This document shows, piece after piece, positions 45,801 through 61,597 of a DNA stretch of 64,000 nucleotides (position 1 is its first letter; the number at the start of each line of letters is the position of its first letter). Origin of the DNA: a virus; the IMG/VR virus record IMGVR_UViG_3300005265_000433, positions 3,790-67,789 of that record. The stretch is one strand, 5' to 3'. The notes beneath the pieces are model-generated. The model had not been told where the DNA came from. It worked only from the letters and a program-made list of their open reading frames with translations, and did no database searches. Made by a program: the position numbers and the translations under genes.

Positions 45801-45865
45801 TATTGTCTAATAGAAAAAAGATTTATGGGTTCAAGTTTAGCTAATTCTGGATTAATTATTTTCAT
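42848..45865 (-). CDS. rpoB: DNA-directed RNA polymerase beta-like subunit
   Basis: GRLCPVDTP..ENCG, PFLEHDD..R..M...MRQA, NYEDG, GDK..RHGNKG, PSRMN.GQ, GGQK.GEME. Confidence 0.95.
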   Translation of the reverse strand: MKIINPELAKLEPINLFSIRQYEYDNMMEIISEIIQPALDDGFVLTCFEKKPSMSNKGNIDRSIYERLAIKFEKDGYNIDLIYKIPKLIKNQYLMINGKQKIPLYQLFDIPIVNRKNLIKFFTNTSSLSIIRKPQSTPSIIMNFQARSVPFSYVVLGYFGFEETKKIINEEYEETPFSKDWFEPLVDDINIILEDKEATREDILAILGDSYSKYDPTKRVKEVLYALDIMLKVDVLSAQFFETNCMILEIVKALRSPGYDDENFENKRIRCWEYILFGKIIKDIYSLCVLSKYYKKKKYSTNSSAIMSEVNESDIVQFDFSINPIEELTKISRTSLIGPDGFKKKEVPKHLRDIRDSMFGRLCPVDTPDRENCGVLQNLLPKSRLDSRFKFNKDYEDKYINSIPVSMVPFLEHDDQTRLQMASSQMRQAIMLKNFQKPMIQSGCEYLYSKYTQFCQVAKHDGTVLLLNDNYMIVEYDDENDKGDIFEIGIRHIYVDNLDEYKVYFKQNDKFKKDDILFESKFMEDGSIQIGNNLLVGFMSYYGLNYEDGIVISDRLVKDEIFTSKHIADLTFTIPIDKILLTLEQGKYKPLPNIGDVVPAGTPYAKLKELSISQTDKYSIFEDTKVLTYPKDLTITKINIYVNDINESIPEFVDWITRKEIKQKRKANILKSTLENIFGIREAKEYIKNNNLDVFDANHGSFKMKTDLFDGIIVKMEGTFEKTIKVGDKIGNRHGNKGVITAILPEKEMPQLEDGRHMDVCLGPLGVPSRMNIGQLYEIYLTKALHQFKEKLIEDFDSGVDNKIIKNNILHFIRLVDKTKNNWYFTKFEEQMPDIITKEFINNLTLIQPPFESISIDDAFEIKRYTGVSDVSRIFEPYSKIYINKEIAVGYMYMFKMAHISEDKLTARSIGPYSRKLLQPLSGKKNKGGQKLGEMEQAALIAHDAPNILYESLTVKSDSIDSKNKYIQQVLKSNDISQDNLDIGAPESVKLLHKYCKVIGVDMDN

Positions 45866-48633
45866 TATTCCCCCTGTTTTAAATTAATATTGAACTTTTC
45901 ACCCATCATAACCCTATTCATAATTCCACTATATGAACTATTAGTATTAATAATTCCATCTAGTAAATGTTTTTTTGGATTACTAAAAGCAAATCCTAAA
46001 AGCCAACTTTCTAATGACGGAACTTTCTGTACTGAATAAAATTCTGGGGTTACCATTTCCCTATCTTTTATTAATCTCCATTTATTATTTTTATACCACA
46101 TTAATTGGGAAACAACACACTCGAAATGAACATGATTTATTTTTTTACTCGAATTATAAATTTCAAATAAATCATCAACTAAAACTTCAGCTGTTGTATT
46201 TCTTGGAAATTTATGTAACTTATTTGAAGCGGATGTTAAATCTGCAACAATATCTTGCTGAATAAAATCATTATTTTCAGTTTCATTATCTTCAGATTTT
46301 TTAATTTGGGCTACCCCTGATGTATGAAAAGTTCTTAAAACCAATTGAGTGTTTGCTTCCCCCAAACTTTGTGCGGCAATTACACCTATATACTCAGAAT
46401 TTAAATTTTTGTAAAAATCTCCATAACATTTTTTACAAATTGTTGGATTTTTACAATATATTGGGCTTCTAACATATATGGTTTTATCTAAGTATTTTTC
46501 GATACTTTTATGTGAAAACTTTTTTAATCTTTTATCTTCCAGGTTTTCTTTAAAGTATTTTCCAATTAACATTTCAGCTTTTTTAATACTTGTTACTTCA
46601 ACTCTTAATAAATCTGTTGTACCACAATCATCTTGAGTTCCCAACGTTAAATTAACACAACAATAAATAAGTTTTCGTGATAAATATCCAGATACACCAG
46701 CATGGAGTGCAATATCTAATAAACCTTTTCGGCATCCATATGTCGAATTAAAAAATTCTTTAGGTGTCAAACCATGAATTAAACTATTTTTTATTGGGTT
46801 TGATAAAATTTGGCCATCAAAATTTGAAATGAAACCCCTTGAGAAAACCATTTGTCTAACTTGGTCCCAACTTCCACGGGCACCGGAATCAATAATACCA
46901 GCATATTTAAAATTTTCTCTTAAATATTCTTTTATTTCATCACTATTAATTTTAACTAGTTGATTATGAATATTTTCATCTTTATAGATTTCATCTTTTA
47001 TTTTTTCAACATTTGGAATAGCACAATTAAATAAAGACATTGTTACACCATATAATGTTGAATATTTAAAACCAACAAATTTAACTTTATTAAAAACTTC
47101 AGCCACAATTTCTTCTGGATATTTTTTTCTAATATCAGTTAAAATATCAACTAATACTTTTTTTGTGATAACCTTATTAATAAAAGGATAATCATCAGGA
47201 AAACAATAATTAACAACTATTCTTCCTTTAATTATTTCTTTTCCTTCCCATTCCATAGTATTATTTAAATCATCAGCTTCAACCAATCCCTTTGATAAAA
47301 GATAAATTCCATAAACAATATCCTGAGAAGGTATTGTTGATAGAGAACCATTACTTGGATTTACTAAATTTTTAGTTGATAACAACTTATCTTTTATTTC
47401 TTGTTTTGCTTCTTTAGAAATTGGTATGTAAATTGCCATTGCATCACCATCAAAATCAGCATTAAAACCTTCACATACTAAAGGATGAATTTGAATTACA
47501 TCTTCCATTGAAACTAAAATTTGAAATCCAATCATTCCTAATCTATGTAGTGTTGGTTGTCTGTTTAGGATACAATATTCATCTTTGGTTAATTTACAAC
47601 ATAATTTAAATAAGGCGGGATCTCTTGTTTCTATACAATATTCAACTTGCTTGATAGCTTTAGGAAAAAGTTTAAACGTTCCCAATTCAATTAGTCTTTT
47701 AGCTATTTGAATTTTAAACAATTCTAAAACCATCTTATAAGGTAATACACACTGATGAAGTTTAATTCTAATATTTGGTGTGATCACACATCTTCCAGAG
47801 AAATCAATTCTTTTTGCTAAAATATGACCTCTTATCAAACCCTCTTTTTTCTTTAATTTCTTTAAAATGTAATCATAAAGTTCATTTACATCTTTCTGAG
47901 TTTGAGAAAAATAATCATAAAAAATTACTTTATTTTGGATTAATTCAAATTTTGTTCCAGATAAACTGAGATTTCTATTTATCAAAGTAAGATAATATTT
48001 ATTTATTTCATCTGCTACTCTATTATCTTTATTTATTCCTCTCGATGCTGGTCTCAATTCTGGTGGCAAAACAATTATATTTTGAATAAAAATTTTATCC
48101 AAATTATCATAAACAATTTTCCATGATTCGGGGTCGTCTTCCATTGATTGTTTTGTATATGTCTCAAATAAAAACTGCATTGCATTTAATGCTTCATAAT
48201 ATTCCACATCTGGAGGCATATCGCATTTATTAACAACAACAAATTCATCAGTATTAGAATCAACATATAATACTGATTGGTTATTCGTTGTTAATTCATC
48301 AATCATATTTTTAATTTTAGTTTTATTTTTACTTATTCTAATAAATAAATCATAAAATATTGGATTTATTACAGGAACAGGTAAAACTATTTTAGCAAAT
48401 CTTTTTCTTCTTTCATCACTATTAGTAATCTTCATTCCGCATTTATCACATTCTCCACCATCTCGTGAAACACCGTGATAAATTCCGCAATCACATGTAT
48501 AATTTTTTATAGGTCCAAAAATAAATTCAGAAAATAAACCATTTTCTCTGAATTTTCTTTTTCTCATTAGTTTTTGGGTTGTTATTTCTGGTAGGTCTTT
48601 ACAAAATTCATCAATATCAATCAGTTTTGGCAT
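45865..48633 (-). CDS. rpoC: DNA-directed RNA polymerase beta'-like subunit
   Basis: Zn-finger CDCG...CDKC, KRIDFSGR, NRQPTLH, NADFDGD catalytic motif, SGYL.RKL, AAQS.GE..TQL.LRTFH. Confidence 0.95.
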   Translation of the reverse strand: MPKLIDIDEFCKDLPEITTQKLMRKRKFRENGLFSEFIFGPIKNYTCDCGIYHGVSRDGGECDKCGMKITNSDERRKRFAKIVLPVPVINPIFYDLFIRISKNKTKIKNMIDELTTNNQSVLYVDSNTDEFVVVNKCDMPPDVEYYEALNAMQFLFETYTKQSMEDDPESWKIVYDNLDKIFIQNIIVLPPELRPASRGINKDNRVADEINKYYLTLINRNLSLSGTKFELIQNKVIFYDYFSQTQKDVNELYDYILKKLKKKEGLIRGHILAKRIDFSGRCVITPNIRIKLHQCVLPYKMVLELFKIQIAKRLIELGTFKLFPKAIKQVEYCIETRDPALFKLCCKLTKDEYCILNRQPTLHRLGMIGFQILVSMEDVIQIHPLVCEGFNADFDGDAMAIYIPISKEAKQEIKDKLLSTKNLVNPSNGSLSTIPSQDIVYGIYLLSKGLVEADDLNNTMEWEGKEIIKGRIVVNYCFPDDYPFINKVITKKVLVDILTDIRKKYPEEIVAEVFNKVKFVGFKYSTLYGVTMSLFNCAIPNVEKIKDEIYKDENIHNQLVKINSDEIKEYLRENFKYAGIIDSGARGSWDQVRQMVFSRGFISNFDGQILSNPIKNSLIHGLTPKEFFNSTYGCRKGLLDIALHAGVSGYLSRKLIYCCVNLTLGTQDDCGTTDLLRVEVTSIKKAEMLIGKYFKENLEDKRLKKFSHKSIEKYLDKTIYVRSPIYCKNPTICKKCYGDFYKNLNSEYIGVIAAQSLGEANTQLVLRTFHTSGVAQIKKSEDNETENNDFIQQDIVADLTSASNKLHKFPRNTTAEVLVDDLFEIYNSSKKINHVHFECVVSQLMWYKNNKWRLIKDREMVTPEFYSVQKVPSLESWLLGFAFSNPKKHLLDGIINTNSSYSGIMNRVMMGEKFNINLKQGE

Positions 48634-48880
48634 TCTTGTCATTCTCCTCATTTTCTTCCAGGTAAGCAGAAATTGAATTTAAATGCTGTTGTATTACATA
48701 AGCTATTTTTTTTTCTATAATTTCATCATATACCTCCATAATTTTTTTAATTTGATTTCTAGATAACTCTTCAAATTTTTCCTCAAATATTTTTTCTATT
48801 GATATACTAATTCTTTTATCAATAAAATCAAATATATTTGTTTTAAACTTTTCTATTTCAGACATATGTATGCACTCCAT
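48617..48880 (-). CDS. Small helical hypothetical protein coupled to rpoC
   Basis: 87-aa ORF overlapping the rpoC start. Confidence 0.6.
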   Translation of the reverse strand: MECIHMSEIEKFKTNIFDFIDKRISISIEKIFEEKFEELSRNQIKKIMEVYDEIIEKKIAYVIQQHLNSISAYLEENEENDKNAKTD

Positions 48881-48914: not shown

Positions 48915-49559
48915 TTAATAGTGTAATACTTCATTAAATGATTGATTGCGTGATTCTAATACATTTTTAATCCATGCCAATCTTTGATCCCTATATAATT
49001 TTCCATTTAAATATTTTGATGTTCTTATTTTTTTGATGTTTCCTTTTTCTAAATCATATTGTCTATCAATATGGTTCCATGATTTCAATCTATAAAACAA
49101 ACCTATGAATATATCCATATAATATTTTTCTATAAAGGGTTGATTTACAAAATCACCTATACATAATTCATGTGGATTATTCATGTGTCCTAATTGTAAT
49201 ATAGATAATGGAGCACCTTTGATTGATTTAGAATTTAAGTGGATACAATCAACATAAAAACCTAAAATTTTATTGGTTTCACTATCAATAAGAATATCAC
49301 ATTCGGATGGGATTAGATTCGGCGTGGCTAATAAAATTGTATACATATCATCATGTTTATGAACACTATGATAGATATAAGGAAAAACCGATGTCTTTAT
49401 TCTTACAATTATTTTTCCTGATAATATATTCAGTTTTGATTGATAAGGAATATTAAAATTATCCAGAAAATCAATTTTTATGTCTTTCCTATATGGATCT
49501 ATCACTGCTTTAACATAGTTAAACGTATAAATCAAGTTTTTTTTCATACATTTTATCAT
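48915..49559 (-). CDS. Hypothetical protein, possibly a divergent E2/UBC-like fold
   Basis: IH.N...LCIG pattern reminiscent of E2 HPN...C; last gene of the Ubl cluster. Confidence 0.35.
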   Translation of the reverse strand: MIKCMKKNLIYTFNYVKAVIDPYRKDIKIDFLDNFNIPYQSKLNILSGKIIVRIKTSVFPYIYHSVHKHDDMYTILLATPNLIPSECDILIDSETNKILGFYVDCIHLNSKSIKGAPLSILQLGHMNNPHELCIGDFVNQPFIEKYYMDIFIGLFYRLKSWNHIDRQYDLEKGNIKKIRTSKYLNGKLYRDQRLAWIKNVLESRNQSFNEVLHY

Positions 49560-49567
49560 AACATTAC

Positions 49568-50431
49568 TTACGCCCCTCCTATAGCTGGAATTAAAATATA
49601 AACACCATCTATTTTATTTGAAATTATGAATGTATCCCCGCACATTTTTAAATATTTTTTAAAATAAACATCTAACTTACCAGCTACTTGACTGAACTGA
49701 CGTTGATCTCTTTCTGAAATTATAACTGATTGGCTTTTAAAACCATTTTCAAAAATAAATTTTTGAGGTAATTTTCTTTTAGAATTTACCATATCTAAAA
49801 TTACATCTGATAAACCATCAACATAATCAAATATTTCATAATAATTATGTATATAATTTTTGGTTATAACTCCAGAAGTAGCTAAATCATATATATCCTC
49901 ATATTTTACATTATCTAAATCATCTAAGCATATTGTTATATAACAATTTTCTGTTATAAATTTATAAATATATTCAGACAATATAAAACCAGATATATAT
50001 TTACTATATTTAACAATATCTTCCATTTTAATATTAGATGAATAATATCCAAATTTAAAATTGTTTTTATTTGTTTTCTTTCTTGCATCTAAAATTAAAA
50101 ATTCTTGTGAAATACAACATTTTAAATTAACTAATTCATCATCTACTAATGTTCTATCTGTACAATTTAAAATTAATTTATCTTTTGGTAATAAATTCCT
50201 ACAACCTTCAAATGACGAATCATAACATTCGATATTTGAGTTTTTAAATTTATTTTTGAAGGCTATAATCTTTTTTTGGCCGATATCTTCATAATTAAAT
50301 AAACTTAATGAAATATTTTTATCTTCAACTATATCATAATCAACTAATTTTAAACTAATATTTTTTTCACATAGTTCTTTTGCTATAAATCCTCCTAAGC
50401 TTCCACAACCTAATATTGTAACATCATTCAT
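49568..50431 (-). CDS. ThiF/E1-like protein, divergent
   Basis: Own GGAG SD and ATG (MNDVTILGCGSLG), VDYD.VE.KN, CTD; lacks the RQ motif. Confidence 0.7.
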   Translation of the reverse strand: MNDVTILGCGSLGGFIAKELCEKNISLKLVDYDIVEDKNISLSLFNYEDIGQKKIIAFKNKFKNSNIECYDSSFEGCRNLLPKDKLILNCTDRTLVDDELVNLKCCISQEFLILDARKKTNKNNFKFGYYSSNIKMEDIVKYSKYISGFILSEYIYKFITENCYITICLDDLDNVKYEDIYDLATSGVITKNYIHNYYEIFDYVDGLSDVILDMVNSKRKLPQKFIFENGFKSQSVIISERDQRQFSQVAGKLDVYFKKYLKMCGDTFIISNKIDGVYILIPAIGGA

Positions 50432-50462
50432 ATTATATACTCCAATATAAAAAAATAAAAAT

Positions 50463-50494
50463 GGGGGATGTGAAAAATTAATTTCACACCCCCC
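50463..50494 (-). terminator. Intrinsic terminator lying inside the called 409-aa ORF
   Basis: GGGGGGUGUGAAA-UUAAUU-UUUCACAUCCCCC followed by AUUUUUAUUUUUUU. Confidence 0.75.
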
Positions 50495-50797
50495 AGCAGT
50501 AACATTGGCAGGCATATTAAAAATATCAGGGCCATAAGTTGCAACTACTTCAGCAATTGTCATACCACCAACAGGAAGGGATACCTGTGTGCAACCATAC
50601 TTAACTAATGCAAACTGAGCATCAGAAACCTGGTCATTACTGGACTGCTGGTTAACTTGAGTGTCAAGAATAAGTTGAACTAACTGGTCTTTAACAGTTT
50701 TAGAAACACCAGTGATTCCTTTTTCAGCACAAATATCTCTCAGTTCTCGGTTAGTCTTAGCATACAACATTTCACTACTGTACATACTTTCCTCCAT
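50489..50797 (-). CDS. HeH/Rho-N-like domain fused to a partial ubiquitin-like (beta-grasp) domain; no stop codon before the terminator
   Basis: KT..ELR.IC...GITG.SK..K.QLV..IL, then VKYG....LPV.GMTIAEV......FN. Confidence 0.55.
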
Positions 50798-50836
50798 TTA
50801 ATAATTAGAATTATTTAAGGTTAAAACTAATCTTAC

Positions 50837-51523
50837 TTATGATGTTGAAACCTTTCTAACAGATGGTGTAACCATCAATTGACTCATATCGAAGTAGATT
50901 TCATTTCTATCTTCTAATTTACCTTCCAGGTAAGCTTCAAAGATCCAACACATAAGTAAAGCAGCTGCCGCATTGACAAAATAAAGTTGAGGTTCTACAG
51001 AATGTAGTTCTTCACAACTCATTTCATCAGGGCTTTTGTCATCTGGGGTCTGAATCTCAGGATGAAAATCTGTTAAACTTGGACTTAATTTTTTTCCTCC
51101 TTTCTTAATAAAAATTTGAGCGTTTCCATCCACATGATCATTACCACCAGAAATCAAAACACAATCATCAACATGTTTTTCAATATAACTAGACACACAT
51201 TTTCTTGTTTTATGATTATCAACCGATAGAAAAACAACTGTATCTTCACCAATTATTTCATGAATATTATTATCAGTTACATAATCAACCACAGACCTAT
51301 AAAAAATATTTTGAAATTTGTTCTGTAATTCCTTAGCCTTAACTTCAGCTTTATCTCCTAGATTTTCGAACTCTTGTCTTTCAAAATTCTTTGGCTCATA
51401 ATGATCTCCATCAACCAAAAGAATTTGATAACTTTCTTCATCAGTTTTAAAATTCAAATATCTGGAAATTTTTTCAACCAATATAGTACCAATCCCACCA
51501 AGACCAATAAAAATTAATCTCAT
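50837..51523 (-). CDS. ThiF/E1-like adenylating enzyme
   Basis: GLGGIG, VDGD.YE.KN.ERQ, KA, VDN...R, SGGN, SC (candidate catalytic Cys), Q...N. Confidence 0.9.
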   Translation of the reverse strand: MRLIFIGLGGIGTILVEKISRYLNFKTDEESYQILLVDGDHYEPKNFERQEFENLGDKAEVKAKELQNKFQNIFYRSVVDYVTDNNIHEIIGEDTVVFLSVDNHKTRKCVSSYIEKHVDDCVLISGGNDHVDGNAQIFIKKGGKKLSPSLTDFHPEIQTPDDKSPDEMSCEELHSVEPQLYFVNAAAALLMCWIFEAYLEGKLEDRNEIYFDMSQLMVTPSVRKVSTS

Positions 51524-52818
51524 GCACGCCTCCCTTTTTTAGTTTTACTTGCTGCTTTTAATATTTCAGGATTATTACCTAATGGATTTTCCTCCCAATC
51601 TATATCAGCAGTAGTTGCATCAAATTCTTTGTCATCACTTTCATAATCAATGTATTCTGTATTTATTTCGTCAACAATACTACGTAGATTTGGATTAGTA
51701 TTAATATCAAGATTTAACAATTCAGAAACAAAATATTCTAATTCATATGCATAAACACAATTTGCACATGGCATAGTTGGATTACCCAATTCACAGATAA
51801 GTAATTCCAACCAATCTGTGTCATCTTCATGAATTGTTGGATCAGGAAAATAATGATTCTGAAGTTTATTTTCTTTCTTGGATGTTTTATCCTTTTGATC
51901 TAATTTAATATTATCTTTATTTTTTGTATCAGCTGATCCATACCCAGCATACCAATTATAATAATCATCATTGTAAAAATTGTGGTGTGGAGTATATTTT
52001 CTGGCAACCATTGCATAAGTTTTCTTAGTTACATTTGAAAGCCATTCTTCGTTTGTCCAACCTTCTTCTAATAGAGGTTTTTCAAATTTCATAAATTTTT
52101 CATTTCTAATAGTTGCATGAAAATTTTGATTTAACTTTTGAAAATGAGATGACCCAAATATTTGGTAGTTATTTAAAGTACAATTATAAGTATTATTAGA
52201 TTTAATTTTATTAACTGGGATATTGATTGGTATTTTTTCAGTTATAGAAATTAAACCTTCAACATAATCTTCAGCAACACTCCTTACACCACCAACAGAA
52301 TATTCAGCTGATAATGAAAAACTATCTGGTCTTGTTACATTACCAACTGTAATATGAAGACCATCAAAGTCATTTTCATCATTAACATCTACTCCAGAAT
52401 GAAAAGCACTCATACTACCATGTGAATGAATTGAACCAACAAGCATAAAATTATCATCAACCACAATTGATTTATAATCAATTGAAGCTCCTGTAACTTC
52501 TTGTTTTGGGGCTTTAAAAGAAATACTATTTGTATCAGTATTCAAATATATTAATACCATTGCTTCTGAAGAATGTTTATTATATGCCTGTCTAAAAAAT
52601 TCAACAACTTCTTCAAAATCCCGTTGTTTAATTTTAGGCAAATTCATATCTACATATGGTGTAACATCTTCAAGTACTGAAATTTGAGACACTGGTGTTA
52701 AACTATCAACAACACCAATTTTCTTTTTGATGAACATTCCATTTTTACCAATAACATATGAAATACCTGGATTATCAGGTATTTCATTTTTTCCATCATT
52801 AATCAAAACTTCAAACAT
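51520..52818 (-). CDS. JAB/MPN+ metallo-isopeptidase (Prok-JAB) with acidic C-terminal extension
   Basis: SEA, P.Q.V, GSIHSH..MSAFHS..D..DE...GLHIT.G. Confidence 0.9.
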   Translation of the reverse strand: MFEVLINDGKNEIPDNPGISYVIGKNGMFIKKKIGVVDSLTPVSQISVLEDVTPYVDMNLPKIKQRDFEEVVEFFRQAYNKHSSEAMVLIYLNTDTNSISFKAPKQEVTGASIDYKSIVVDDNFMLVGSIHSHGSMSAFHSGVDVNDENDFDGLHITVGNVTRPDSFSLSAEYSVGGVRSVAEDYVEGLISITEKIPINIPVNKIKSNNTYNCTLNNYQIFGSSHFQKLNQNFHATIRNEKFMKFEKPLLEEGWTNEEWLSNVTKKTYAMVARKYTPHHNFYNDDYYNWYAGYGSADTKNKDNIKLDQKDKTSKKENKLQNHYFPDPTIHEDDTDWLELLICELGNPTMPCANCVYAYELEYFVSELLNLDINTNPNLRSIVDEINTEYIDYESDDKEFDATTADIDWEENPLGNNPEILKAASKTKKGRRA

Positions 52819-52828
52819 ATTGTCTCCT

Positions 52829-55216
52829 TTAATTATAAAATTTTATAAAATTTTCTTCTACTGTCTGATTATTAAATATTCTTGGTGATGGTATTCCATA
52901 TTCATTATTTTGGAACTTTTTTATTGTTTTAAAAGTTTGGGGACGTCCATCATTAAATGCATCATCTAAACTAGTTTTAATATTACATTCACTTTTAGAT
53001 GGTTCACTTCCAACATTTTTAAAATGTTCTTTAACAGTTTTTAACCATAAAGTTTGATTATTTGAGAGAACTATTAATTTATCATCTCTATAACAATCAG
53101 TTATTATTCCTTCTATTTTATAAGATTTACTCATGGTTAAACCAATAAATCTAGTTGATGAGGTCTTTTCTATATAATCCCCAACATTAAAACCGTCACA
53201 TTCTAAAGTGGCTGTTCTAATTAAACAACCATTAAATAATTTTTTGGATAAACCTACATCATCTGTAATCGGCAAACTAAATTTAGTTTTATCTTTACAT
53301 GTTGTAAGAATTATTGAAATTTCATTTTCAGATATTTCAAATCCATCAATAACACAGTATAATAAAGATAAGTTATAAAATGATGTCCATTTTGGTACTA
53401 CAATTAATTCTCCTTTATTTAATGATCTAAGTTTTGTTTCTCTTGACATATAATAAACTAAATTATCAAGTTTATTAGATACCTCATTAAAATTATCATA
53501 TGTAATTTGGTTGTTATCTAAATTGATTATTATAGTTTTTCTTCCAGCTGGAGCTAAAGTAGTAAATTCACCAGCGATAAGAAATGAATCTTGCACTATG
53601 AAATTAATATTAATTTTATGTGACAATGAGACATAATCAACTAGTGCAAAACTATTATCTAAAGATAAAAACATATAATTATTTTCTATCTTATCGAAAT
53701 TACATATTACTGAATTATTAATTTGTATACGTCCACGTTCAAAAATTATAGTAGAATCATCCACAACAAATGAATTTCTTTCTTCAAAACACAAATTATT
53801 TCTTTTTTCATATATTGTTAATTTTTTATTTTTTCTAAGTGTTATTCCATCAACAACATATCCTTTAATATCTTTTTCAAGATAAAAATCATACATTGAA
53901 TTAGAATATCTTTTATCCAACGAAGATTTTAATACATAATTACCAGCTATATTATTGACTTTTTCTTTAAAAGTAAAAAATATAGCATTGTGGTTAAATT
54001 TATTTATACCAATGAGTTTATCACCTTCAGATATAATTTTATTATTATACTTAAACTTAGTAACTATTAAATTTTTCTCCTTTAATTTATTTGTAATAAT
54101 ATCATCAACCATATCCTTATTTATTTTATTTAATTCTATCCTGTAAATAATGCTATGGTTTCCTTTAGGAACTAATTCTAGAATTGATTTTTTATAATTA
54201 TCACTACCTCCTCCTATACTTATAATATTTACTAAAATATACCTAATTTTATTCATAACAAATTCATCTTGCAAATTGATGGTAATGTGATCATCATCAT
54301 TAGAAAATGTTATACATTTTTCAATTCCATTATAGGTAACATCATGTTTCCTATTTATTTCTCTGAGTCTATCAATAGAACCAACTGTAGTTTCACCAGT
54401 AAAACTATTAAAAATATTATCTGATAATTTATTTGCGGTAAGATCTATTGATGAGTCTGCATAAAGAAAAGATTTAGTATATTTAAGAAGACTAAACTTT
54501 GGAGAAAATTCATGGCCTAATACTTTAGCTGGATTATTAATACTTTCATATTCCCAAATATAATAATTTGTATGAATTGAATTAGCTCTTCTTGATCGGT
54601 TACTAGTATTTTCAAGATTATATGTTAAATCATTATTATATACTGATACCCAAAAATTATTAACTAACTTATTACATGCCTCCACTTGATTTTCACAATA
54701 ATACAGTGAATGGTCTTCAGGCATACACACACTTTGATTATTATATATATTTGGAAAAGGCATCAGTTGTATAGGTGATTCAAAAGAACTGATTGGACTA
54801 TTACTCAAAAAAACATGTACCAGATTTCTAGAATGAGAAGGCCCAAAAACAATTTGAAAAATCACATATGGGAATAATAACTTAAAACTGTTTTTCCGTT
54901 TAGTTTTAACTTGCGGATAATTGTCTCTAAATTTTTCTAACATTTGATCCCTTATATATGATAATGTAGAATCAAGTGTTATTTTGTGAAATTCTGGTGG
55001 GAATTCCATAATGTAAATTGTTCGTTCTCTTCCCATAAGAATTCCCTTGCAGTTATTTGGAAGAAAACAACTCATGGTTGGTCTACCGAGCTGATTCATT
55101 CCGGCCTGTATTATATTAGAAAGAAACAGTTGGGTAGGTATCACTGTTTTTTCATTATAATTATTTCCCTCCATTATAGAGGTAAAATTTTTTTCAACCA
55201 ATAATTTTGCTGGCAT
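52829..55216 (-). CDS. Prokaryotic E2 (family D-like) domain fused to a long unknown C-terminal region
   Basis: FPYVIF, PFPNIY...VC, FW.S.YNNDL, WE..S..NP. Confidence 0.65.
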   Translation of the reverse strand: MPAKLLVEKNFTSIMEGNNYNEKTVIPTQLFLSNIIQAGMNQLGRPTMSCFLPNNCKGILMGRERTIYIMEFPPEFHKITLDSTLSYIRDQMLEKFRDNYPQVKTKRKNSFKLLFPYVIFQIVFGPSHSRNLVHVFLSNSPISSFESPIQLMPFPNIYNNQSVCMPEDHSLYYCENQVEACNKLVNNFWVSVYNNDLTYNLENTSNRSRRANSIHTNYYIWEYESINNPAKVLGHEFSPKFSLLKYTKSFLYADSSIDLTANKLSDNIFNSFTGETTVGSIDRLREINRKHDVTYNGIEKCITFSNDDDHITINLQDEFVMNKIRYILVNIISIGGGSDNYKKSILELVPKGNHSIIYRIELNKINKDMVDDIITNKLKEKNLIVTKFKYNNKIISEGDKLIGINKFNHNAIFFTFKEKVNNIAGNYVLKSSLDKRYSNSMYDFYLEKDIKGYVVDGITLRKNKKLTIYEKRNNLCFEERNSFVVDDSTIIFERGRIQINNSVICNFDKIENNYMFLSLDNSFALVDYVSLSHKININFIVQDSFLIAGEFTTLAPAGRKTIIINLDNNQITYDNFNEVSNKLDNLVYYMSRETKLRSLNKGELIVVPKWTSFYNLSLLYCVIDGFEISENEISIILTTCKDKTKFSLPITDDVGLSKKLFNGCLIRTATLECDGFNVGDYIEKTSSTRFIGLTMSKSYKIEGIITDCYRDDKLIVLSNNQTLWLKTVKEHFKNVGSEPSKSECNIKTSLDDAFNDGRPQTFKTIKKFQNNEYGIPSPRIFNNQTVEENFIKFYN

Positions 55217-55247
55217 TAAAACCTCCTTATTTAAATATTTAACTATT

Positions 55248-55267
55248 CAATTATTTATATATATAGT
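55248..55267 (-). promoter_or_regulatory. Class-A motif variant ACTATATATATAAATAATTG
   Basis: Upstream of the 795-aa E2-like gene. Confidence 0.5.
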
Positions 55268-55281
55268 TATTATTAAAAATA

Positions 55282-55323
55282 ATGGTTTCCCACATTAAGA
55301 TAAATCAAAATGTGGGAAACCAT
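55282..55323 (-). terminator. 15-bp perfect hairpin
   Basis: atggtttcccacatt-N12-aatgtgggaaaccat. Confidence 0.75.
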
Positions 55324-55334
55324 AAAACACAATA

Positions 55335-57512
55335 CTACAATGAAAAATGTTCTCTAACAAAATCTTCATGCATTCTACATACAACTCCAGTTGGTTTTCT
55401 TAAATGAATAAAAGAACTAATACTGGCATTTCCTTCAAATATCTTTACATTACACGTAGTTGACCTAGCAACAACATCATATTTATCAGTTTTTCTAAAT
55501 CCATCAATTCTAGTTGATGTTATTTTTTTGATAGTTGTCCCAAATTTAAATTTTGGATCAGATATAGAAAAATCATCTGATACCCCATATCTTGAACATA
55601 ATGTTATTGATTCTATTTGATTAGACACGCCTCCTAAAAATTTAACACTAGCTCTAATCTCATTTAAATCTTCATCAAAATAAATAGAAGTTATTCTTAA
55701 ACGGTTAAAACAACTATACATACAAATTATATCACCAACTTTATATTTGACTATTCGATTTTTACAAGATATACTTAATACTTTAGTCTTTTTATCATAC
55801 CAATCATCAAAAGCATCATTCAATACATCTCGTCTGCTATATGGAGTAATTGTTGTGGATTCTGAAACCCACTTATAACCATTTTCAGTTTGTGATAATA
55901 AAAAACTTCCTATGAGTATACTTGATAAACCTTGAATAAAATTAGTTTTGATACCTTTAATGAATTTTGGTTTAGTTGTCAATTGATTAAACTGATTTAA
56001 TGAAATACTTTTATCTGAATTAACAATTAGATTTATTTTTAATCCATTACTAAATAAAAGACAAAACGACCCATTTGAAATAATAACTTTTTCATAAGAT
56101 CCAGTTGATTTTAACAAAATATCATCCTTATCAATATAAAATATAATTTCCTTTCCTTTCTCAAAACCAAAGATATCTTCAATTGATAGTTTTTCAATAT
56201 TGTTAATATCAAATGCTAGTTTAAATACACCATTATTTGTAATTAACGTAATATCTCCATTAATATTTTTTAACACCCTTTCTAAAACATAAGTATTATA
56301 AAGATTATTATTCCAGGTATATATAAAAATATCTCCTTTTTTAAGTTTTGAGCCATCTAAAAGTTCAATCTCAGATAAAATCTCATTTTCTTGTTCAAAT
56401 TTCTTTTGACATATATCTTCATACATACAATATAAATTATTAAAAGAAAAAGAACATTCAGCATCAGTTTTAATATTCCTACATAGTAAAAACTTATCAT
56501 TTTTATGTCTATCAAATATTATATCATCAATAATATAATCAACATCATGAATGGTTATTCTCTCACCACATTCCCAAATATACGTTGTACCATCTTTATC
56601 TTGTAGATTAAAAAATAATTCATTATTCGTTATAAATGTATTATTTAAAATGTTACCATTTTTAGGTAATTCAGAAATGCTACCACTTAACCAATCAATA
56701 ATATCATAAAATACCTCTTTTTTAGATTTGTTAAAATATACTTCATTCGACCGAGTTTTTAATATTATAGCATTAGGTAAATCTATTTTTTTAAACTCTT
56801 TTAATATTTTAGATGGATCTTCTGTGGAAACTTTTTCCCACTCATAATAATTACCAAATAATGAATTACCATAACTGCTAACACATTCAACATAATCATC
56901 GTTAAATGCTGTATTCCATAAGTTATTATTTACAATATTTACAATATTTTTAATATTTTCTTCTCTCTTAATATACTCATAATCATCGCCTGTCAATCCC
57001 TGACATAGATAATTAGTCATATCATCGTGGATTCTTACGTTAAATAGAGGTGCATGATAAACTCTATCATACACACTTCTAATTGGTTTTGGGTTTATAT
57101 ACAACGATACAAATATATTTTTATTAAATAAATTTACGTTTGTTTTAATATACATATAAGGCATATATAAATAAAATGAAATATTTCCATTTAAATCAAC
57201 TTTCTTACATACCTCTTTATTTTTAACTTCAAAAACATTTTTCATATTTAATACTGATTCATTAAATGTTACATAAATTTTTCTATATTGTGGTTGAAAT
57301 TCTTGAATTATATCAACTAAACCGCGTTCAATCGACATATGAATCGAGTTGGACGGTAAATCCATATTTAAATTTAATGAATCAATTGAACATTTTTGTA
57401 AAAAATCTATCAGATGATTTGGATTTTTTTCTATTCCAATCGCGTTTATACCAATATCCGAATCGTAATTTAATGCTTTTATTGTATTACTTTCAATAAA
57501 AAAACCATTCAT
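55335..57512 (-). CDS. Second prokaryotic E2 (family D-like) fusion protein, paralog of 52829..55216
   Basis: MPYMYI, YHAPLFNV...LCQG, LW.T.FNDD, WE..S..DP; start moved to MNGFF after AGGAG. Confidence 0.65.
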   Translation of the reverse strand: MNGFFIESNTIKALNYDSDIGINAIGIEKNPNHLIDFLQKCSIDSLNLNMDLPSNSIHMSIERGLVDIIQEFQPQYRKIYVTFNESVLNMKNVFEVKNKEVCKKVDLNGNISFYLYMPYMYIKTNVNLFNKNIFVSLYINPKPIRSVYDRVYHAPLFNVRIHDDMTNYLCQGLTGDDYEYIKREENIKNIVNIVNNNLWNTAFNDDYVECVSSYGNSLFGNYYEWEKVSTEDPSKILKEFKKIDLPNAIILKTRSNEVYFNKSKKEVFYDIIDWLSGSISELPKNGNILNNTFITNNELFFNLQDKDGTTYIWECGERITIHDVDYIIDDIIFDRHKNDKFLLCRNIKTDAECSFSFNNLYCMYEDICQKKFEQENEILSEIELLDGSKLKKGDIFIYTWNNNLYNTYVLERVLKNINGDITLITNNGVFKLAFDINNIEKLSIEDIFGFEKGKEIIFYIDKDDILLKSTGSYEKVIISNGSFCLLFSNGLKINLIVNSDKSISLNQFNQLTTKPKFIKGIKTNFIQGLSSILIGSFLLSQTENGYKWVSESTTITPYSRRDVLNDAFDDWYDKKTKVLSISCKNRIVKYKVGDIICMYSCFNRLRITSIYFDEDLNEIRASVKFLGGVSNQIESITLCSRYGVSDDFSISDPKFKFGTTIKKITSTRIDGFRKTDKYDVVARSTTCNVKIFEGNASISSFIHLRKPTGVVCRMHEDFVREHFSL

Positions 57513-57571
57513 ACTATTCTCCTTTTTTATGATTAAAAATTTAAAACGTAAAACATATAACATATTATTTT

Positions 57572-57672: not shown

Positions 57673-57978
57673 CTACTTTTTAATACTAAATTTTATATCC
57701 TCTTCATCTTTAAGCCATTCAACTTTATCAAACTTGACTGCTCTCCAACCCTTTTTTTCTAAATCATACACATGTACTAAATTATTTTTATTAATTTGAT
57801 TTAAAATTTTAGGGAGGTTTACTTCTTTTGGCCTATCTGATTTTGGTATTTTATCAAAATTTAAAGTACATAACATAATTCTTTCAGTGCCATCAGCTTT
57901 TTTAAATTTAATTGTAACTGACTCTTCAGCTTTTATCTTTTCTAAAAATTCAATTGCTGAATCAATTGTGTTTGCCAT
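57673..57978 (-). CDS. WYL-like SH3-fold protein (DUF2693-like)
   Basis: FKK.DGT.R.M.CTL and VYDLEK.GWR. Confidence 0.75.
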   Translation of the reverse strand: MANTIDSAIEFLEKIKAEESVTIKFKKADGTERIMLCTLNFDKIPKSDRPKEVNLPKILNQINKNNLVHVYDLEKKGWRAVKFDKVEWLKDEEDIKFSIKK

Positions 57979-57981
57979 GTT

Positions 57982-59010
57982 TTAACTCCTTTTATTTAAA
58001 TGTAATAATGTATCCTTGCTATCAGAATCTAGAATCATTTTTGACATTATTTGACATGTCCAATTGCAACCTTTACACGCAAATATTTTATCAATTCTTA
58101 ACATATTCTTTAATTCTTCCCAATTCACTTCACCATTCTTATCAATAAAATTAATGACTTTAGCATTTGGATATATTGATGAATAACCTTTTACTCTTAA
58201 ACATAATCTAATTTTTCCATCAGCATCAATTGTTAGATTATGAAATGAATCCAATAACTTACAATCTAAATTAGAAGGTAAAATATCATAAATATTTTTT
58301 AAAAGTTCCTGTGACATATGAACATCATAATTTTTATCAATTAATGATTTTAAAATATTCCATACTTTATCACTAGGATATACCATCATTTTTTCATTCG
58401 TCACATTTGAAAAATCATAATGATCATTTTTAGAAATATCTACAAACGTAATACTGCTAGTAATACCATTTTCATCCAAAACTTTAACTAACGGTTCAAT
58501 AGATTCAATATTTTTATTATCAATAGTTATTTCAGCAACTAAATCCTTAACTTTATCTTTCAAAGCTATTAATCTATTTAACCCATTTAAACTTTTTTTA
58601 TACCTATCAGTTTCCTTTTCACCAGAAAAAATAACTGGATCAACCGATGATGTTAATCCATCAACATATTCAGTTTTTTCAAATAATCTTTCCAAAGCTG
58701 GCTGAACTTCATCTGAATTATTAGTAATAATTGTATAATATATTTTTTTATCATTACAAAAATTTATAATCTCTGGTAAGTCTTCTCTTAAAAGGGGCTC
58801 CCCACCATAAAAAATATGAAAACAGAATGGATTATGTTTATGAATTCTTTCTAAAATTTCTAAAACATATTTTGTTGACATTTCATTTATTGTATAATAA
58901 TCCATTGATGGGTAATTTTTATTATGAGGTTCCCTCACAATTCCACAATAAGAACAAGACAAATTACAACGCCTTGTTAATAACCAGTTTACAATAATTA
59001 ATTTATCCAT
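57982..59010 (-). CDS. Radical SAM protein
   Basis: CNLSCSYC, GGEPLLR.D, TN, SVD, plus C-terminal Cys cluster (C...DG.I.LC...CKGC..TC). Confidence 0.9.
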   Translation of the reverse strand: MDKLIIVNWLLTRRCNLSCSYCGIVREPHNKNYPSMDYYTINEMSTKYVLEILERIHKHNPFCFHIFYGGEPLLREDLPEIINFCNDKKIYYTIITNNSDEVQPALERLFEKTEYVDGLTSSVDPVIFSGEKETDRYKKSLNGLNRLIALKDKVKDLVAEITIDNKNIESIEPLVKVLDENGITSSITFVDISKNDHYDFSNVTNEKMMVYPSDKVWNILKSLIDKNYDVHMSQELLKNIYDILPSNLDCKLLDSFHNLTIDADGKIRLCLRVKGYSSIYPNAKVINFIDKNGEVNWEELKNMLRIDKIFACKGCNWTCQIMSKMILDSDSKDTLLHLNKRS

Positions 59011-61572: not shown

Positions 61573-61597
61573 AAACACTCCACATTTTACTTTTTAA

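What the first reader, a model, noticed from the sequence alone, without database searches (positions are those of the whole stretch)
48915..57512. Phage-encoded ubiquitin-like conjugation cluster (E2, E2, JAB, E1, Ubl, E1-like) directly upstream of the phage RNA polymerase
Seen: seven co-directional genes encoding two E2-D-like proteins that each retain a Cys after the P..N motif, a JAB protease with intact HSH...S..D, a ThiF/E1 with nucleotide-binding motifs and an SC motif, an HeH-Ubl protein, a second degenerate ThiF and a possible third E2-like ORF. Established: E1-E2-JAB-Ubl operons exist in bacteria, and E1/E2/JAB enzymes act in anti-phage systems such as type II CBASS and Bil. Here the set sits in a phage genome between sbcCD and rpoC/rpoB. 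Inference: the phage runs its own protein-conjugation pathway, to modify host targets, remove host defence Ubl tags, or regulate its RNAP.
Basis: partly seen in the sequence, partly recalled or inferred. Interest (0 to 1): 0.9.

Follow-up and report, generated by a model that had tools for sequence, protein, structure and literature searches.

The report
Ubiquitin-like conjugation genes in huge phage
A clade of very large marine-sediment phages carries its own set of ubiquitin-like tagging genes (activating enzyme, giant conjugating enzymes, a tag protein and a de-tagging protease), a kind of machinery so far studied in bacteria as anti-phage defence, although in this particular assembly the tag gene is cut short.

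Summary
The domain calls hold. Window 48915-57563 (minus strand) lies in a fragment of a huge myovirus. It encodes two paralogous giant proteins with an N-terminal Prok-E2_D-like UBC fold and an invariant P..N-x(n)-C. It also encodes a JAB/JAMM peptidase with an intact E..HxH..S..D motif, and a minimal ThiF E1 with intact ATP motifs and an invariant Cys. An HeH-plus-ThiS-like Ubl follows. Next comes a divergent second E1-like protein whose C-terminal unit looks beta-grasp-like and ends G-[GSA]-A. Last is a 214-aa protein that is probably a third E2-like protein.

Ten viral loci, this window included, show the whole set in the same order beside rpoC/rpoB.

Two corrections apply. The window has six ORFs, not seven. 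A 185-bp deletion, absent from a near-identical metagenome contig and from contigs of four public runs, removes the Ubl's last 31 codons, including its terminal Gly, and fuses it to the second E1-like gene. Second, the cluster is two units split by a terminator-like hairpin: an accessory E2-JAB-E1-Ubl cassette, absent at this position in one relative, and a backbone pair of E1-like and small E2-like genes.

The closest known kind is Iyer 2006 operon type 6d; the best NCBIfam matches are PRTRC models. It is not a member of PRTRC, Bil or CBASS. Targets and role are unknown.

The parts
55335..57563 (-). E2L-A: a 742-aa protein. Its N-terminal Prok-E2_D-like UBC domain carries N175 and Cys187 (codon 57003-57005). 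A long C-terminal region of unknown fold follows.
   Evidence: It is paralogous to E2L-B (E 3e-7). It is a row of alignment A2, which has an invariant P, N, C and W. No Pfam, PADLOC or PHROG family hits the whole protein.
52829..55216 (-). E2L-B: a 795-aa protein. Its UBC-like domain spans about residues 40-250 and carries P153-x-x-N156-x7-Cys164 (codon 54725-54727). The C-terminal region has conserved patches at about residues 600-780.
   Evidence: - AF2 model of residues 1-267: pLDDT 84, pTM 0.77.
- VIA-align: the best rows are E2/UEV chains, top Z 5.3.
- Prok-E2_D scores 16.7 bits, E 0.006, on residues 127-206.
- P116, N156, C164 and P229 are each kept in 77 of 77 large homologues.
51520..52818 (-). 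JAB/JAMM metallopeptidase, 432 aa. The domain spans about residues 15-162, followed by a variable C-terminal extension.
   Evidence: - NCBIfam PRTRC_A E 5.3e-13, 49 bits, below its cut-off of 101.8.
- Pfam Prok-JAB 20.3 bits, below its cut-off of 25.
- The JAMM motif is invariant in 8 of 8.
50837..51523 (-). Minimal ThiF-type E1, 228 aa, with a candidate catalytic Cys170 (codon 51014-51016).
   Evidence: - Pfam ThiF E 9.9e-13.
- PRTRC_ThiF is the best NCBIfam hit, 38.8 bits, below its cut-off.
- The adenylation motifs and the Cys are invariant in 8 of 8.
50496..50797 (-). The part of the HeH-Ubl gene that is kept: the HeH/Rho_N module (about 50645-50761), a linker and the first part of the ThiS-like domain. 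The deletion junction lies at 50495|50494.
   Evidence: - Rho_N E 6.3e-5.
- Alignment to L023 shows 185 bp missing.
- The intact gene is 131 aa and ends with Gly then Cys in L023:521-916.
50462..50495 (-). Terminator-like hairpin (14 pairs, 7 G-C, T-rich tail). In the intact form it follows the Ubl stop. Here it is read as part of the fused frame.
   Evidence: 6 such sites found in the region against 1.1 expected.
49568..50431 (-). ThiF2: a 287-aa divergent E1-like protein, counted from its own Met123/RBS. It has an N-terminal adenylation-type Rossmann domain. A C-terminal strand-strand-helix-strand-strand unit ends in the conserved tail P-A-I-G-G-A.
   Evidence: - PDB profile search: MoeB 7.1e-12, MccB 3.7e-10, Cap2 4.8e-7, on residues 1-103 only.
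- VIA-align: the top 20 rows are all E1-type chains, Cap2 Z 11.6.
- AF2: pLDDT about 80 for residues 200-283, 61.6 overall.
- The last residue is Ala in 11 of 11 and the tail Gly is kept in 10 of 11.
- Separate 284-287-aa genes are called in relatives.
48915..49559 (-). p214: probably a third E2-like protein, with H107-x-N109 and Cys133 (codon 49161-49163).
   Evidence: - It is positionally equivalent to the 115-148-aa ORFs that carry an invariant HPN-x8-C.
- Atlas feature search: 27 of 30 hits are clusters carrying Prok-E2_D, score 0.94.
- Profile tests against the E2L family are not significant.
48617..48880 (-). p87: a small acidic protein. An ORF of similar size sits just upstream of rpoC in the relatives, but only L002's is a shown homologue.
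   Evidence: L002 homologue E 3e-11. ORFs of 71-85 aa sit in the same place in other loci. No family was found.
42848..48651 (-). Phage rpoC (45865-48651) and rpoB (42848-45865), immediately downstream. This is context, not shown to be part of the system.
   Evidence: Pfam RNA_pol_Rpb1/Rpb2 domains. They are syntenic in every locus that reaches that far.

Best explanation
The region holds the parts of a ubiquitin-like protein-conjugation pathway carried by a clade of huge (about 300-350 kb) tailed phages.

**Unit 1, an accessory cassette.** It encodes a ThiS-like tag protein with an N-terminal HeH nucleic-acid-binding module, ending in ...A-G-x-K-G with zero or one extra residue.
- The 228-aa ThiF enzyme would adenylate that terminal glycine.
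- The tag would then pass, possibly via the enzyme's Cys170, to the invariant cysteine of the giant E2-like proteins (Cys164 and Cys187).
- The 500-600-residue C-terminal regions of those proteins would choose the targets.
- The JAB peptidase would trim the extra residue (Cys in this lineage) and reverse conjugation.

**Unit 2, part of the phage backbone just upstream of rpoC/rpoB.** It pairs a divergent E1-like protein, carrying a beta-grasp-like C-terminal domain with a conserved G-[GSA]-A end, with a small HPN..C protein. This looks like a second, minimal E1/E2 pair.

**What is shown:** the folds and families of E1, E2 and JAB, the motif conservation, the synteny, and the truncation of the tag gene in this assembly.

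**What is inferred:** the order of transfer, trimming by JAB, target choice by the E2 C-termini, a nucleic-acid-linked site of action from the HeH module, and any role in infection.
For: **E2**
- A profile of the two N-termini finds 229 cluster representatives at E <= 1e-3.
- 22 of the 46 that I scanned hit Prok-E2_D and no other Pfam family. 11 of these reach the 25-bit cut-off.
- The P, N, C and W positions are invariant in 32 of 32. P116, N156, C164 and P229 are kept in 77 of 77 large homologues.
- The AF2 model has pLDDT 84. The best VIA-align rows are E2/UEV chains, including bacterial Cap2, CdnG-E2 and BubCD.

**E1**
- Pfam ThiF scores above its cut-off.
- All adenylation motifs and a Cys are invariant in 8 of 8.

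**JAB**
- PRTRC_A E 5.3e-13.
- The JAMM motif is invariant in 8 of 8.

**Ubl**
- Rho_N hits 8 of 8 members. ThiS hits 4 of 8 (best E 0.017) and TGS hits 2 of 8.
- The Atlas nearest clusters are ThiS-bearing, score 0.88-0.90.
- The C-terminal E-F...A-G-x-K-G is invariant in 8 of 8. Two further loci end the same way.

**Synteny**
- The same order occurs in the window, L002, L003, L005, L006, L008, L009, L010, L026 and L027.

**Two units**
- A terminator-like hairpin follows the Ubl gene.
- L013 keeps ThiF2 and the small HPN..C gene but lacks E2L, JAB, ThiF and Ubl at this site. No E2L was found in the 92 kb held for its record.
Against: - No biochemical activity is shown for any member of this family. 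Its nearest bacterial relatives (type 6d/PRTRC) are also uncharacterised.
- The window proteins themselves score below the curated cut-offs for Prok-E2_D, Prok-JAB, PRTRC_A and PRTRC_ThiF.
- Foldseek found no PDB match at E <= 0.001 for the E2 model. VIA-align Z values of about 5 are modest by that tool's own notes.
- The Ubl fold was not modelled. ThiS hits are sub-threshold: 13.9 bits in a record-wide scan. PDB sequence searches found only the HeH part.
- The tag ends K-G, not G-G.
- In this window the tag gene lacks its C-terminus, so the cassette as assembled could not conjugate.
- The E2 assignment of p214 rests on a motif and on language-model features. Profile comparisons were not significant.
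- No E3, no target and no expression data are available.
Confidence: 0.65

Rival explanations
1. Sulfur-carrier chemistry rather than protein tagging. The ThiS-like protein would be adenylated by the ThiF enzyme and converted to a thiocarboxylate that donates sulfur to a nucleoside, DNA base or cofactor. JAB would only expose the terminal Gly, as in known JAB-ThiS/MoaD-E1 sulfur pathways.
For: - The tag's only family-level signals are ThiS and TGS.
- The E1 is of the minimal ThiF/MoeB size and scores almost as well on thiF models as on PRTRC_ThiF.
- Iyer 2006 (PMC1779556, passages read) describes JAB + ThiS/MoaD + E1 sulfur clusters.
- Nucleotide-modification-type genes lie nearby: a radical SAM gene and GTP cyclohydrolase FolE2.
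Against: - The cassette always includes a giant protein with a UBC fold and an invariant Cys, which sulfur pathways do not need.
- No rhodanese, cysteine desulfurase or PP-loop sulfurtransferase was seen among the Pfam or NCBIfam results for the neighbours.
- The radical SAM and FolE2 genes persist in L013, which lacks the cassette.
- The HeH module on the tag has no role in sulfur transfer.
Confidence: 0.1
2. The same enzymes, but serving conflict between the phage and host immunity or rival phages. In one version the JAB and E1/E2 proteins undo or hijack host Ubl-based immunity of the Bil or type II CBASS kind. In the other the cassette is a phage-borne exclusion system that tags competitors, as Bil tags tail fibres.
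For: - The cassette is present or absent on an otherwise conserved backbone: absent at this site in L013 and duplicated E2 in the window and L002 only. That pattern is typical of conflict genes.
- All characterised bacterial E1/E2/JAB systems named in the papers I saw act in phage defence. This rests on search listings and abstracts and passages of the Hör et al. preprint.
Against: - PADLOC models of Bil and CBASS give nothing for the E2L, JAB or p214 proteins. The E1 gets only 13-15 bits, and the 409-aa frame (HeH-Ubl plus ThiF2) matches E1-E2 models only on its ThiF2 Rossmann part, not its Ubl part.
- The cassette brings its own tag, which a pure antagonist would not need.
- No host is known.
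- One absence in a 29%-complete record is weak evidence.
Confidence: 0.15
3. One pathway, not two. The second E1-like protein would pair with the 228-aa ThiF as the catalytically weakened half of a heteromeric E1, as in eukaryotic E1s. Its C-terminal beta-grasp-like domain would then be a ubiquitin-fold domain that recruits the E2s.
For: - ThiF2 keeps GxGxxG and several acidic residues but lacks the R-Q of the ThiF/MoeB motif.
- Its structural neighbours include SAE1 and the NAE1 regulatory subunit.
- It has a C-terminal strand-strand-helix-strand-strand unit at pLDDT about 80.
Against: - ThiF2 and the small HPN..C gene persist where ThiF, Ubl, JAB and E2L are absent (L013).
- ThiF2 sits after a terminator-like hairpin.
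- It has its own invariant D-x-R-K and a conserved terminal G-[GSA]-A. These suggest an activity and a tail of its own.
- The beta-grasp call was not confirmed by any fold search, because the Rossmann domain fills the hit list.
Confidence: 0.15
4. In this genome the cassette is dead. The 185-bp deletion would be real in the sampled phage population, leaving a tag without its glycine, fused to ThiF2.
For: The window sequence itself. The frame stays open across the junction.
Against: - A near-identical contig carries the intact gene.
- Contigs of X1 and X2 span the site without the gap. One X3 contig bridges it, and X4 contigs cover most of the segment. No joint matching the deletion appears in 4 of 4 runs from three studies.
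- Contigs drop rare variants, so a minority deletion or an assembly artefact cannot be told apart.
Confidence: 0.15

Closest known systems
Bacterial operon type 6d of Iyer, Burroughs & Aravind 2006 (PMC1779556; passages and the Table 1 row were read). [quoted passage not shown] That this operon type equals the TIGRFAM 'PRTRC' cassette is my recollection, not a call result.
   Same: - It has the same four parts as separate genes.
- The E2 lacks the His of HPN but keeps N and C.
- The tag ends in a conserved Gly.
- The best NCBIfam hits for the JAB and E1 proteins are PRTRC_A and PRTRC_ThiF.
- It is carried on a mobile genome.
   Different: - All scores are far below the PRTRC cut-offs.
- NCBIfam gave no PRTRC_B to F or ParB hit for any of the ten proteins scanned.
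- The E2 domain heads a protein of about 750-890 aa.
- The tag carries an HeH module.
- No invariant His follows the Cys, and no invariant Arg/Trp occurs in the JAB N-terminus.
- The host genome is a lytic-type huge myovirus.
- A second pair of E1-like and E2-like genes lies alongside.
Bil (BilABCD) anti-phage ubiquitin-like conjugation system
   Same: It has separate Ubl, E2, JAB-type peptidase and E1 genes, with conjugation through cysteines expected.
   Different: - PADLOC BilD gives only 14.1 bits on the E1 (E 0.0035). No Bil model matches the E2L, JAB or p214 proteins, nor the frame that holds the Ubl.
- This set is encoded by the phage, not the host.
Type II CBASS Cap2 (E1-E2 fusion) and Cap3 (JAB)
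   Same: Cap2 is the top structural neighbour of ThiF2's adenylation domain (Z 11.6) and appears among the E2 fold hits. CBASS also activates the C-terminus of a large protein, not a small tag. This is a possible parallel for ThiF2's conserved tail.
   Different: No CD-NTase or effector gene appears in the neighbourhood. E1 and E2 are separate proteins here. The sequence similarity is confined to the Rossmann core.
E1-like genes of Asgard-archaeal 'Nidhogg' viruses (bioRxiv 10.1101/2021.07.29.454249; passages read)
   Same: These are viruses of prokaryotes from deep-sea hydrothermal sediments that carry ThiF/E1-like genes.
   Different: That paper reports three E1-like homologues thought to exploit host E2 and Ubl proteins. 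It does not report a virus-encoded E2, JAB and tag. I did not compare the sequences.

Membership tests
E2/UBC superfamily (E2L-A, E2L-B) | UBC fold | tested here: met
   The AF2 model has pLDDT 84 and pTM 0.77. In VIA-align against 48,161 chains, rows 1-13 and 15-33 are E2, UEV or bacterial E2-like chains by their titles. The best is Z 5.3, rmsd 5.0, 130 aligned. Foldseek alone gave no E <= 0.001, although E2s head its list.
E2/UBC superfamily (E2L-A, E2L-B) | Catalytic Cys a few residues after the (H)PN motif | tested here: met
   The N and C positions are invariant in 32 of 32 and 77 of 77. The spacing is 8 in E2L-B and 12 in E2L-A. The His is absent.
E2/UBC superfamily (E2L-A, E2L-B) | Forms a Ubl~Cys thioester | not testable with these tools
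   This needs biochemistry.
Pfam Prok-E2_D (PF14460) | Score at or above the 25-bit gathering cut-off | tested here: not met
   The E2L-B N-terminus scores 16.7 bits and E2L-A scores nothing. Homologues found with their profile do reach the cut-off: 11 of 46 scanned, and 22 of 46 at E <= 1e-3. The relation is therefore transitive.
JAB/JAMM metallopeptidase | E ... HxH-x7-S-xx-D zinc site | tested here: met
   E85, H131, H133, S141 and D144 are invariant in 8 of 8. Pfam Prok-JAB scores 20.3 bits, below its cut-off of 25.
ThiF/E1 adenylating enzymes (228-aa protein) | Pfam ThiF above cut-off, plus GxGxxG, DxD..N..RQ and DN..R | tested here: met
   48.2 bits against a cut-off of 28.1. The motifs are invariant in 8 of 8.
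ThiF/E1 adenylating enzymes (ThiF2) | Full adenylation motif set | tested here: inconclusive
   Pfam ThiF scores 33.9 bits, above its cut-off, but only on the first roughly 100 residues. The fold's top 20 neighbours are all E1-type. The R-Q of the motif is replaced, and a different invariant D-x-R-K is present.
Ubiquitin-like beta-grasp tag (HeH-Ubl) | Beta-grasp fold | tested here: inconclusive
   ThiS hits 4 of 8 members (best E 0.017), TGS hits 2 of 8 and ThiS-like hits 1 of 8. ThiS scores 13.9 bits in one of three records. The Atlas feature neighbours are ThiS-bearing clusters, 0.88-0.90.
Ubiquitin-like beta-grasp tag (HeH-Ubl) | Conserved C-terminal Gly available for activation | tested here: met
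   This holds for the family...A-G-x-K-G, then a stop or one extra residue, in 8 of 8 and in L026 and L027. It is not met by the window's own truncated copy.
PRTRC cassette (NCBIfam TIGR03734-03742) | PRTRC_A and PRTRC_ThiF above cut-off, with ParB and proteins B-F alongside | tested here: not met
   PRTRC_A scores 49 bits against 101.8 and PRTRC_ThiF scores 38.8 against 144.75. No other PRTRC model hit any of the ten proteins.
Bil system | BilA, B, C and D models | tested here: not met
   Only BilD matched, at 14.1 bits on the E1.
Type II CBASS | CD-NTase with a Cap2 E1-E2 fusion and Cap3 | tested here: not met
   The E1-E2 models match only the Rossmann core of ThiF2 (residues 124-186 of the fused frame). 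No CD-NTase family appears among the neighbours.
E2-like (p214 and the small HPN..C proteins) | Homology to, or fold of, the UBC domain | tested here: inconclusive
   HPN-x8-C is invariant in 7 of 7 small proteins, and P, H, N and C are invariant in 9 of 9 once p214 and its L002 homologue are included. Atlas: 27 of 30 hits are Prok-E2_D clusters. hhalign E values were 0.019 and 0.078, and hmmsearch gave 0.03-0.6. None is significant, although the PN..C regions were the parts aligned.

The most novel reading that the evidence does not exclude
Huge phages run their own two-tier ubiquitin-like system. In the first tier, giant E2 enzymes attach a nucleic-acid-binding (HeH) tag to proteins on DNA or on the transcription machinery, remodelling the infected cell. 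In the second tier, a backbone E1-like protein activates its own beta-grasp tail and, with a mini-E2, attaches itself to a partner, perhaps the phage RNA polymerase encoded next door. This would be protein conjugation as a viral takeover tool in prokaryotes. It would also be a self-conjugating E1-Ubl fusion, a form I did not meet in the papers I saw.
Probability: 0.15. Interest if true: 0.9.

Novelty: new variant of a known kind. Interest (0 to 1): 0.75.

Why it matters
E1/E2/JAB/Ubl operons in bacteria have recently been shown to be anti-phage immunity, in the Bil and type II CBASS systems and suggested for Bub. A complete and conserved set on the phage side would show that viruses of prokaryotes also use ubiquitin-like tagging, as many eukaryotic viruses do. 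It would open the question of what they tag.

The family is not rare. The E2 domain profile finds 229 cluster representatives at 50% identity, and 67 of the 149 retrieved best hits are of the giant 740-950-aa form.

The parts are small, separable and have clear catalytic residues, so the claim can be tested directly in vitro.

I found no description of such a phage module. Searches for 'PRTRC', 'Prok-E2', jumbo or huge phages with ubiquitin or JAB, and E1-like/E2-like with bacteriophage gave none. The 2021 survey of 224 jumbo phages (PMC7824862) contains none of the words JAB, ThiF, E1-like, E2-like or Ubl. Subscription-only papers and supplements were not searched.

Tried and rejected
- **No close relatives of the 795-aa protein.** tblastn against 50,697 phage records found no match. 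A pattern scan of viral contigs found none. The word-indexed protein search found only the protein itself. The exhaustive profile search was needed.
- **Complex prediction** of ThiF2 with p214 gave no answer (score 0.00, controls not run). This says nothing either way.
- **Profile comparisons.** Those between the small HPN..C proteins or p214 and the E2L family were not significant. The ThiF2 C-terminal unit against the Ubl domain gave nothing.
- **PDB sequence searches.** The Ubl profile returned only Rho N-terminal domains. The Ubl domain alone returned nothing meaningful. The 228-aa E1 as a single sequence had no PDB hit at E <= 0.01.
- **Atlas structure search for p214.** It used a poor stored model (pLDDT 0.39) and gave only TM below 0.3, so I ignored it.
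- **The search for related loci.** The single protein P0009 found none. A narrower alignment found four loci. Two carry the full module. Two have stand-alone 260-288-aa E2_D-like genes with no JAB, ThiF or Ubl in the 7 kb held downstream.
- **Small flanking ORFs.** No Pfam family at E <= 0.01 was found for the ORFs flanking the cassette in relatives, apart from one that turned out to be a WYL_2 gene.
- **Rejected readings.** I considered that the radical SAM gene (a weak MoaA-like hit) with ThiF and the ThiS-like protein might form a molybdopterin set. I rejected this because no MoaC, MoaE or MoaB is present and the radical SAM gene persists without the cassette. I also considered an archaeal virus. 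A transglycosylase/endolysin-type gene points to a bacterial host, but the host was not determined.

Full report
**Where the window lies.** The window is 64 kb of a 67.8-kb IMG/VR virus record that CheckV rates 19% complete. That implies a genome of roughly 350 kb. GC content is about 27%. PHROG hits to tail sheath (E 1.6e-72), baseplate wedge proteins and large terminase (E 4.9e-44) show a contractile-tailed phage. Near-identical DNA occurs in contigs of public runs labelled marine sediment and hydrothermal vent metagenomes.

**Gene order.** Everything from 63811 down to 42848 is on the minus strand. In transcription order the genes are:
- RtcB, SbcD, SbcC, a 121-aa ORF, a radical SAM protein and a WYL_2 protein;
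- the region in question;
- an 87-aa ORF, rpoC, rpoB and a FolE2-type GTP cyclohydrolase.

**The two giant proteins.** The 742-aa and 795-aa proteins hit no Pfam, PADLOC, PHROG or NCBIfam family as whole proteins. They also had no relatives in the phage GenBank set, in a pattern scan of viral contigs or in the word-indexed protein search.

Their N-terminal 200 residues are paralogous (E 3e-7). A profile of the two N-termini, run against 1.84 billion cluster representatives, found 229 proteins at E <= 1e-3. I scanned 46 of the 150 listed, mostly the shorter ones. Of these, 22 hit Pfam Prok-E2_D and nothing else, and 11 reached the gathering score. The 795-aa N-terminus itself gives Prok-E2_D 16.7 bits, E 0.006.

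In a 32-row alignment four columns are invariant: P116, N156, C164 and W221. In 77 giant homologues P116, N156, C164 and P229 are each kept in 77 of 77. The motif P-x-x-N, about eight residues, then C is the E2 active-site pattern without the His. This is the form Iyer et al. 2006 describe for their operon type 6d (PMC1779556, passages read).

An AlphaFold2 model of residues 1-267 reached pLDDT 84 and pTM 0.77. Foldseek gave no PDB hit at E <= 0.001, though Cdc34, Ubc7 and Rad6 head the list. The exhaustive VIA-align search put E2, UEV and bacterial E2-like chains (Cap2, CdnG-E2, BubCD) in rows 1-13 and 15-33. The top row has Z 5.3, rmsd 5.0 and 130 aligned residues. By the tool's own caution Z near 5 is modest. 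The case rests on fold, transitive family membership and the invariant motif taken together.

The C-terminal 500-600 residues have conserved positions, especially around 600-780, but no recognised family.

**JAB and E1.**
- The 432-aa protein matches NCBIfam PRTRC_A (E 5.3e-13, residues 15-162) and Prok-JAB. Both scores are below their curated cut-offs.
- The JAMM site (E85, H131, H133, S141, D144) is invariant in 8 of 8 aligned relatives.
- The 228-aa protein passes Pfam ThiF (48.2 bits). Its best NCBIfam model is PRTRC_ThiF, below cut-off.
- GLGGxG, VDGDxYExKNxxRQ, VDNH and a Cys in EMSCEEL are invariant in 8 of 8.

**The tag, and what is wrong with it here.** The 409-aa frame begins with an HeH/Rho_N module. 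It runs on without a stop into a second ThiF-like domain that has its own ribosome-binding site and Met.

In relatives these are two genes. One is a 124-176-aa HeH protein ending ...E-F-x-x-x-A-G-x-K-G, followed by a stop or one extra residue. The other is a protein of about 290 aa.

A metagenome contig identical over the rest of the aligned stretch (L023) carries 185 bp that the window lacks. These encode the last 31 residues of the tag, its stop and part of the spacer. The intact gene is 131 aa and ends Gly-Cys.

Contigs of runs X1 and X2, from two studies, span the whole 2.3-kb stretch with the 185 bp present. One X3 contig bridges the segment and X4 contigs cover most of it. No joint matching the deletion appeared in any of the four runs. 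Contigs hide rare variants, so the window's form is either a minority variant or an assembly artefact. Either way the normal state of this phage is seven genes with an intact tag.

The fold evidence for the tag is indirect:
- ThiS hits 4 of 8 members (best E 0.017), TGS hits 2 of 8 and ThiS-like hits 1 of 8.
- The ThiS model scores 13.9 bits at the tag gene in one of three records searched.
- ThiS-bearing clusters are the nearest Atlas neighbours, at 0.88-0.90.

PDB sequence searches saw only the HeH part.

**The second E1-like protein and the 214-aa protein.**
- ThiF2's first roughly 100 residues match MoeB (7.1e-12), MccB, PaaA, Cap2 and UBA5.
- The 20 best structural neighbours of its model are all E1-type, led by Cap2 at Z 11.6.
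- It lacks the R-Q of the ThiF motif. It does keep invariant GxGxxG, DxDxVE..N, K54 and D92, and has a family-specific D-x-R-K.
- Its last 65 residues are predicted as strand-strand-helix-strand-strand at pLDDT about 80, against 61.6 for the whole model.
- Every member ends in Ala (11 of 11). A Gly two residues earlier is kept in 10 of 11, giving tails of the P-A-I-G-G-A or P-E-T-G-S-A type.

Downstream of ThiF2 each relative has a 115-148-aa ORF with an invariant H-P-N, eight residues, then C (7 of 7). The window's p214 and L002's 203-aa protein align to these with the same P, H, N and C, with an insertion before the Cys (9 of 9).

The Atlas feature search placed p214 next to viral clusters carrying Prok-E2_D: 27 of 30 hits, score 0.94, 210 of 256 features. 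Direct profile tests against the E2L family were not significant. I rate 'third E2-like' as probable, not shown.

**Synteny and modularity.**
- Ten loci show E2L, JAB, ThiF, HeH-Ubl, ThiF2 and the small E2-like gene in this order: the window, L002, L003, L005, L006, L008, L009, L010, L026 and L027. L010 is cut off within ThiF2. One of the parent contigs is 268.8 kb.
- In eight of them rpoC and rpoB follow and the radical SAM and WYL_2 genes lie upstream. L010 ends before rpoC. For L026 and L027 only the cassette profiles were run, apart from one WYL_2 hit in L026.
- L004 and L007 are partial copies of the L005 and L008 types. L011 and L012 start at ThiF2.
- Only the window and L002 have two E2L genes. 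The others have one, of 830-886 aa.
- L013 has WYL_2, two small ORFs, ThiF2, the small E2-like gene and rpoC, but no E2L, JAB, ThiF or tag. No E2L was found in the 92 kb held for that 29%-complete record.
- The strongest terminator-like hairpin of the region sits just after the tag gene (50495-50462).

I therefore read two units: an accessory cassette (E2L, JAB, E1, tag) and a backbone pair (ThiF2 and the small E2-like protein) tied to the RNAP genes.

**Mechanism.** The most likely mechanism is a conjugation cascade, with four steps:
1. JAB exposes the terminal Gly.
2. The ThiF enzyme adenylates it.
3. The tag moves to the E2L cysteine.
4. The E2L C-terminal region selects the substrates.

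The HeH module suggests action on or near nucleic acid. These steps are inferred from family knowledge and none is shown here.

The main rivals are:
- sulfur-carrier chemistry, argued against by the constant presence of a Cys-bearing UBC domain and the lack of sulfurtransferases nearby;
- a role in conflict with host Ubl-based immunity or with rival phages;
- a heteromeric E1 in which ThiF2 is the weakened half.

**Comparison with known systems.** The nearest described kind is the bacterial Ubl-JAB-E1-E2 operon type 6d of Iyer et al. 2006; I recall this as the TIGRFAM PRTRC cassette. The cut-offs are not met and ParB and the other PRTRC proteins are absent, so it is not a member of PRTRC. Bil and CBASS models do not match beyond the Rossmann core.

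I found no paper describing such a phage module. An Asgard-virus preprint reports viral E1-like genes only. My verdict is a new variant of a known kind. It is conserved, widespread in metagenomes and directly testable.

Noticed in passing
window 50494-50495; L023:824-1008: The window lacks 185 bp relative to an otherwise identical metagenome contig. The loss is not a multiple of three, yet it leaves the truncated tag in frame with the next gene. The G-run at the junction also varies: 6 against 7 G between contigs.
   Followed up: yes
window 41976-42833 (-): The 285-aa gene just downstream of rpoB is a FolE2-type GTP cyclohydrolase I (Pfam GCHY-1, E 1.6e-59). It is conserved in that position in every relative that reaches that far. 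Together with the nearby radical SAM gene, which gives a weak QueE-like PHROG hit, it hints at a 7-deazaguanine-type nucleotide pathway.
   Followed up: partly
window 57982-59010 (-) and 57673-57978 (-): A radical SAM protein lies just upstream of the cassette. Its best PADLOC hits are prokaryotic viperins (E 7.7e-15), and it also gives NirJ, MoaA and SPASM-type hits. A WYL_2 small protein follows it. Both are conserved in relatives, including the one without the cassette.
   Followed up: partly
window 15531-17276 (+): A 581-aa HNH/homing-endonuclease-like gene (PHROG E 4.7e-94) sits directly after the tail sheath gene.
   Followed up: no
L007:7709-10708: In one relative rpoB is in two ORFs (523 and 463 aa). 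The near-identical L008 has one 999-aa gene. This is a split, an insertion or an assembly difference.
   Followed up: no
L024:1-783, L025:217-1083: Stand-alone 260-288-aa Prok-E2_D-like genes occur in other viral contigs, with no JAB, ThiF or tag in the 7 kb held downstream. Many such proteins of about 275 aa are among the profile hits. Their partners are unknown.
   Followed up: partly
L003:9102-9936, L009:9102-9941, L026:12246-12854: Most relatives have one or two extra ORFs (about 170-200 aa and about 80 aa) between the tag gene and ThiF2. The window and L002 lack them. No family was found.
   Followed up: partly
window 62618-63811 (-), 59380-62608 (-): RtcB RNA ligase (E 5.3e-109) and SbcCD lie upstream in the same orientation. 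No tRNA genes were found in the window.
   Followed up: no
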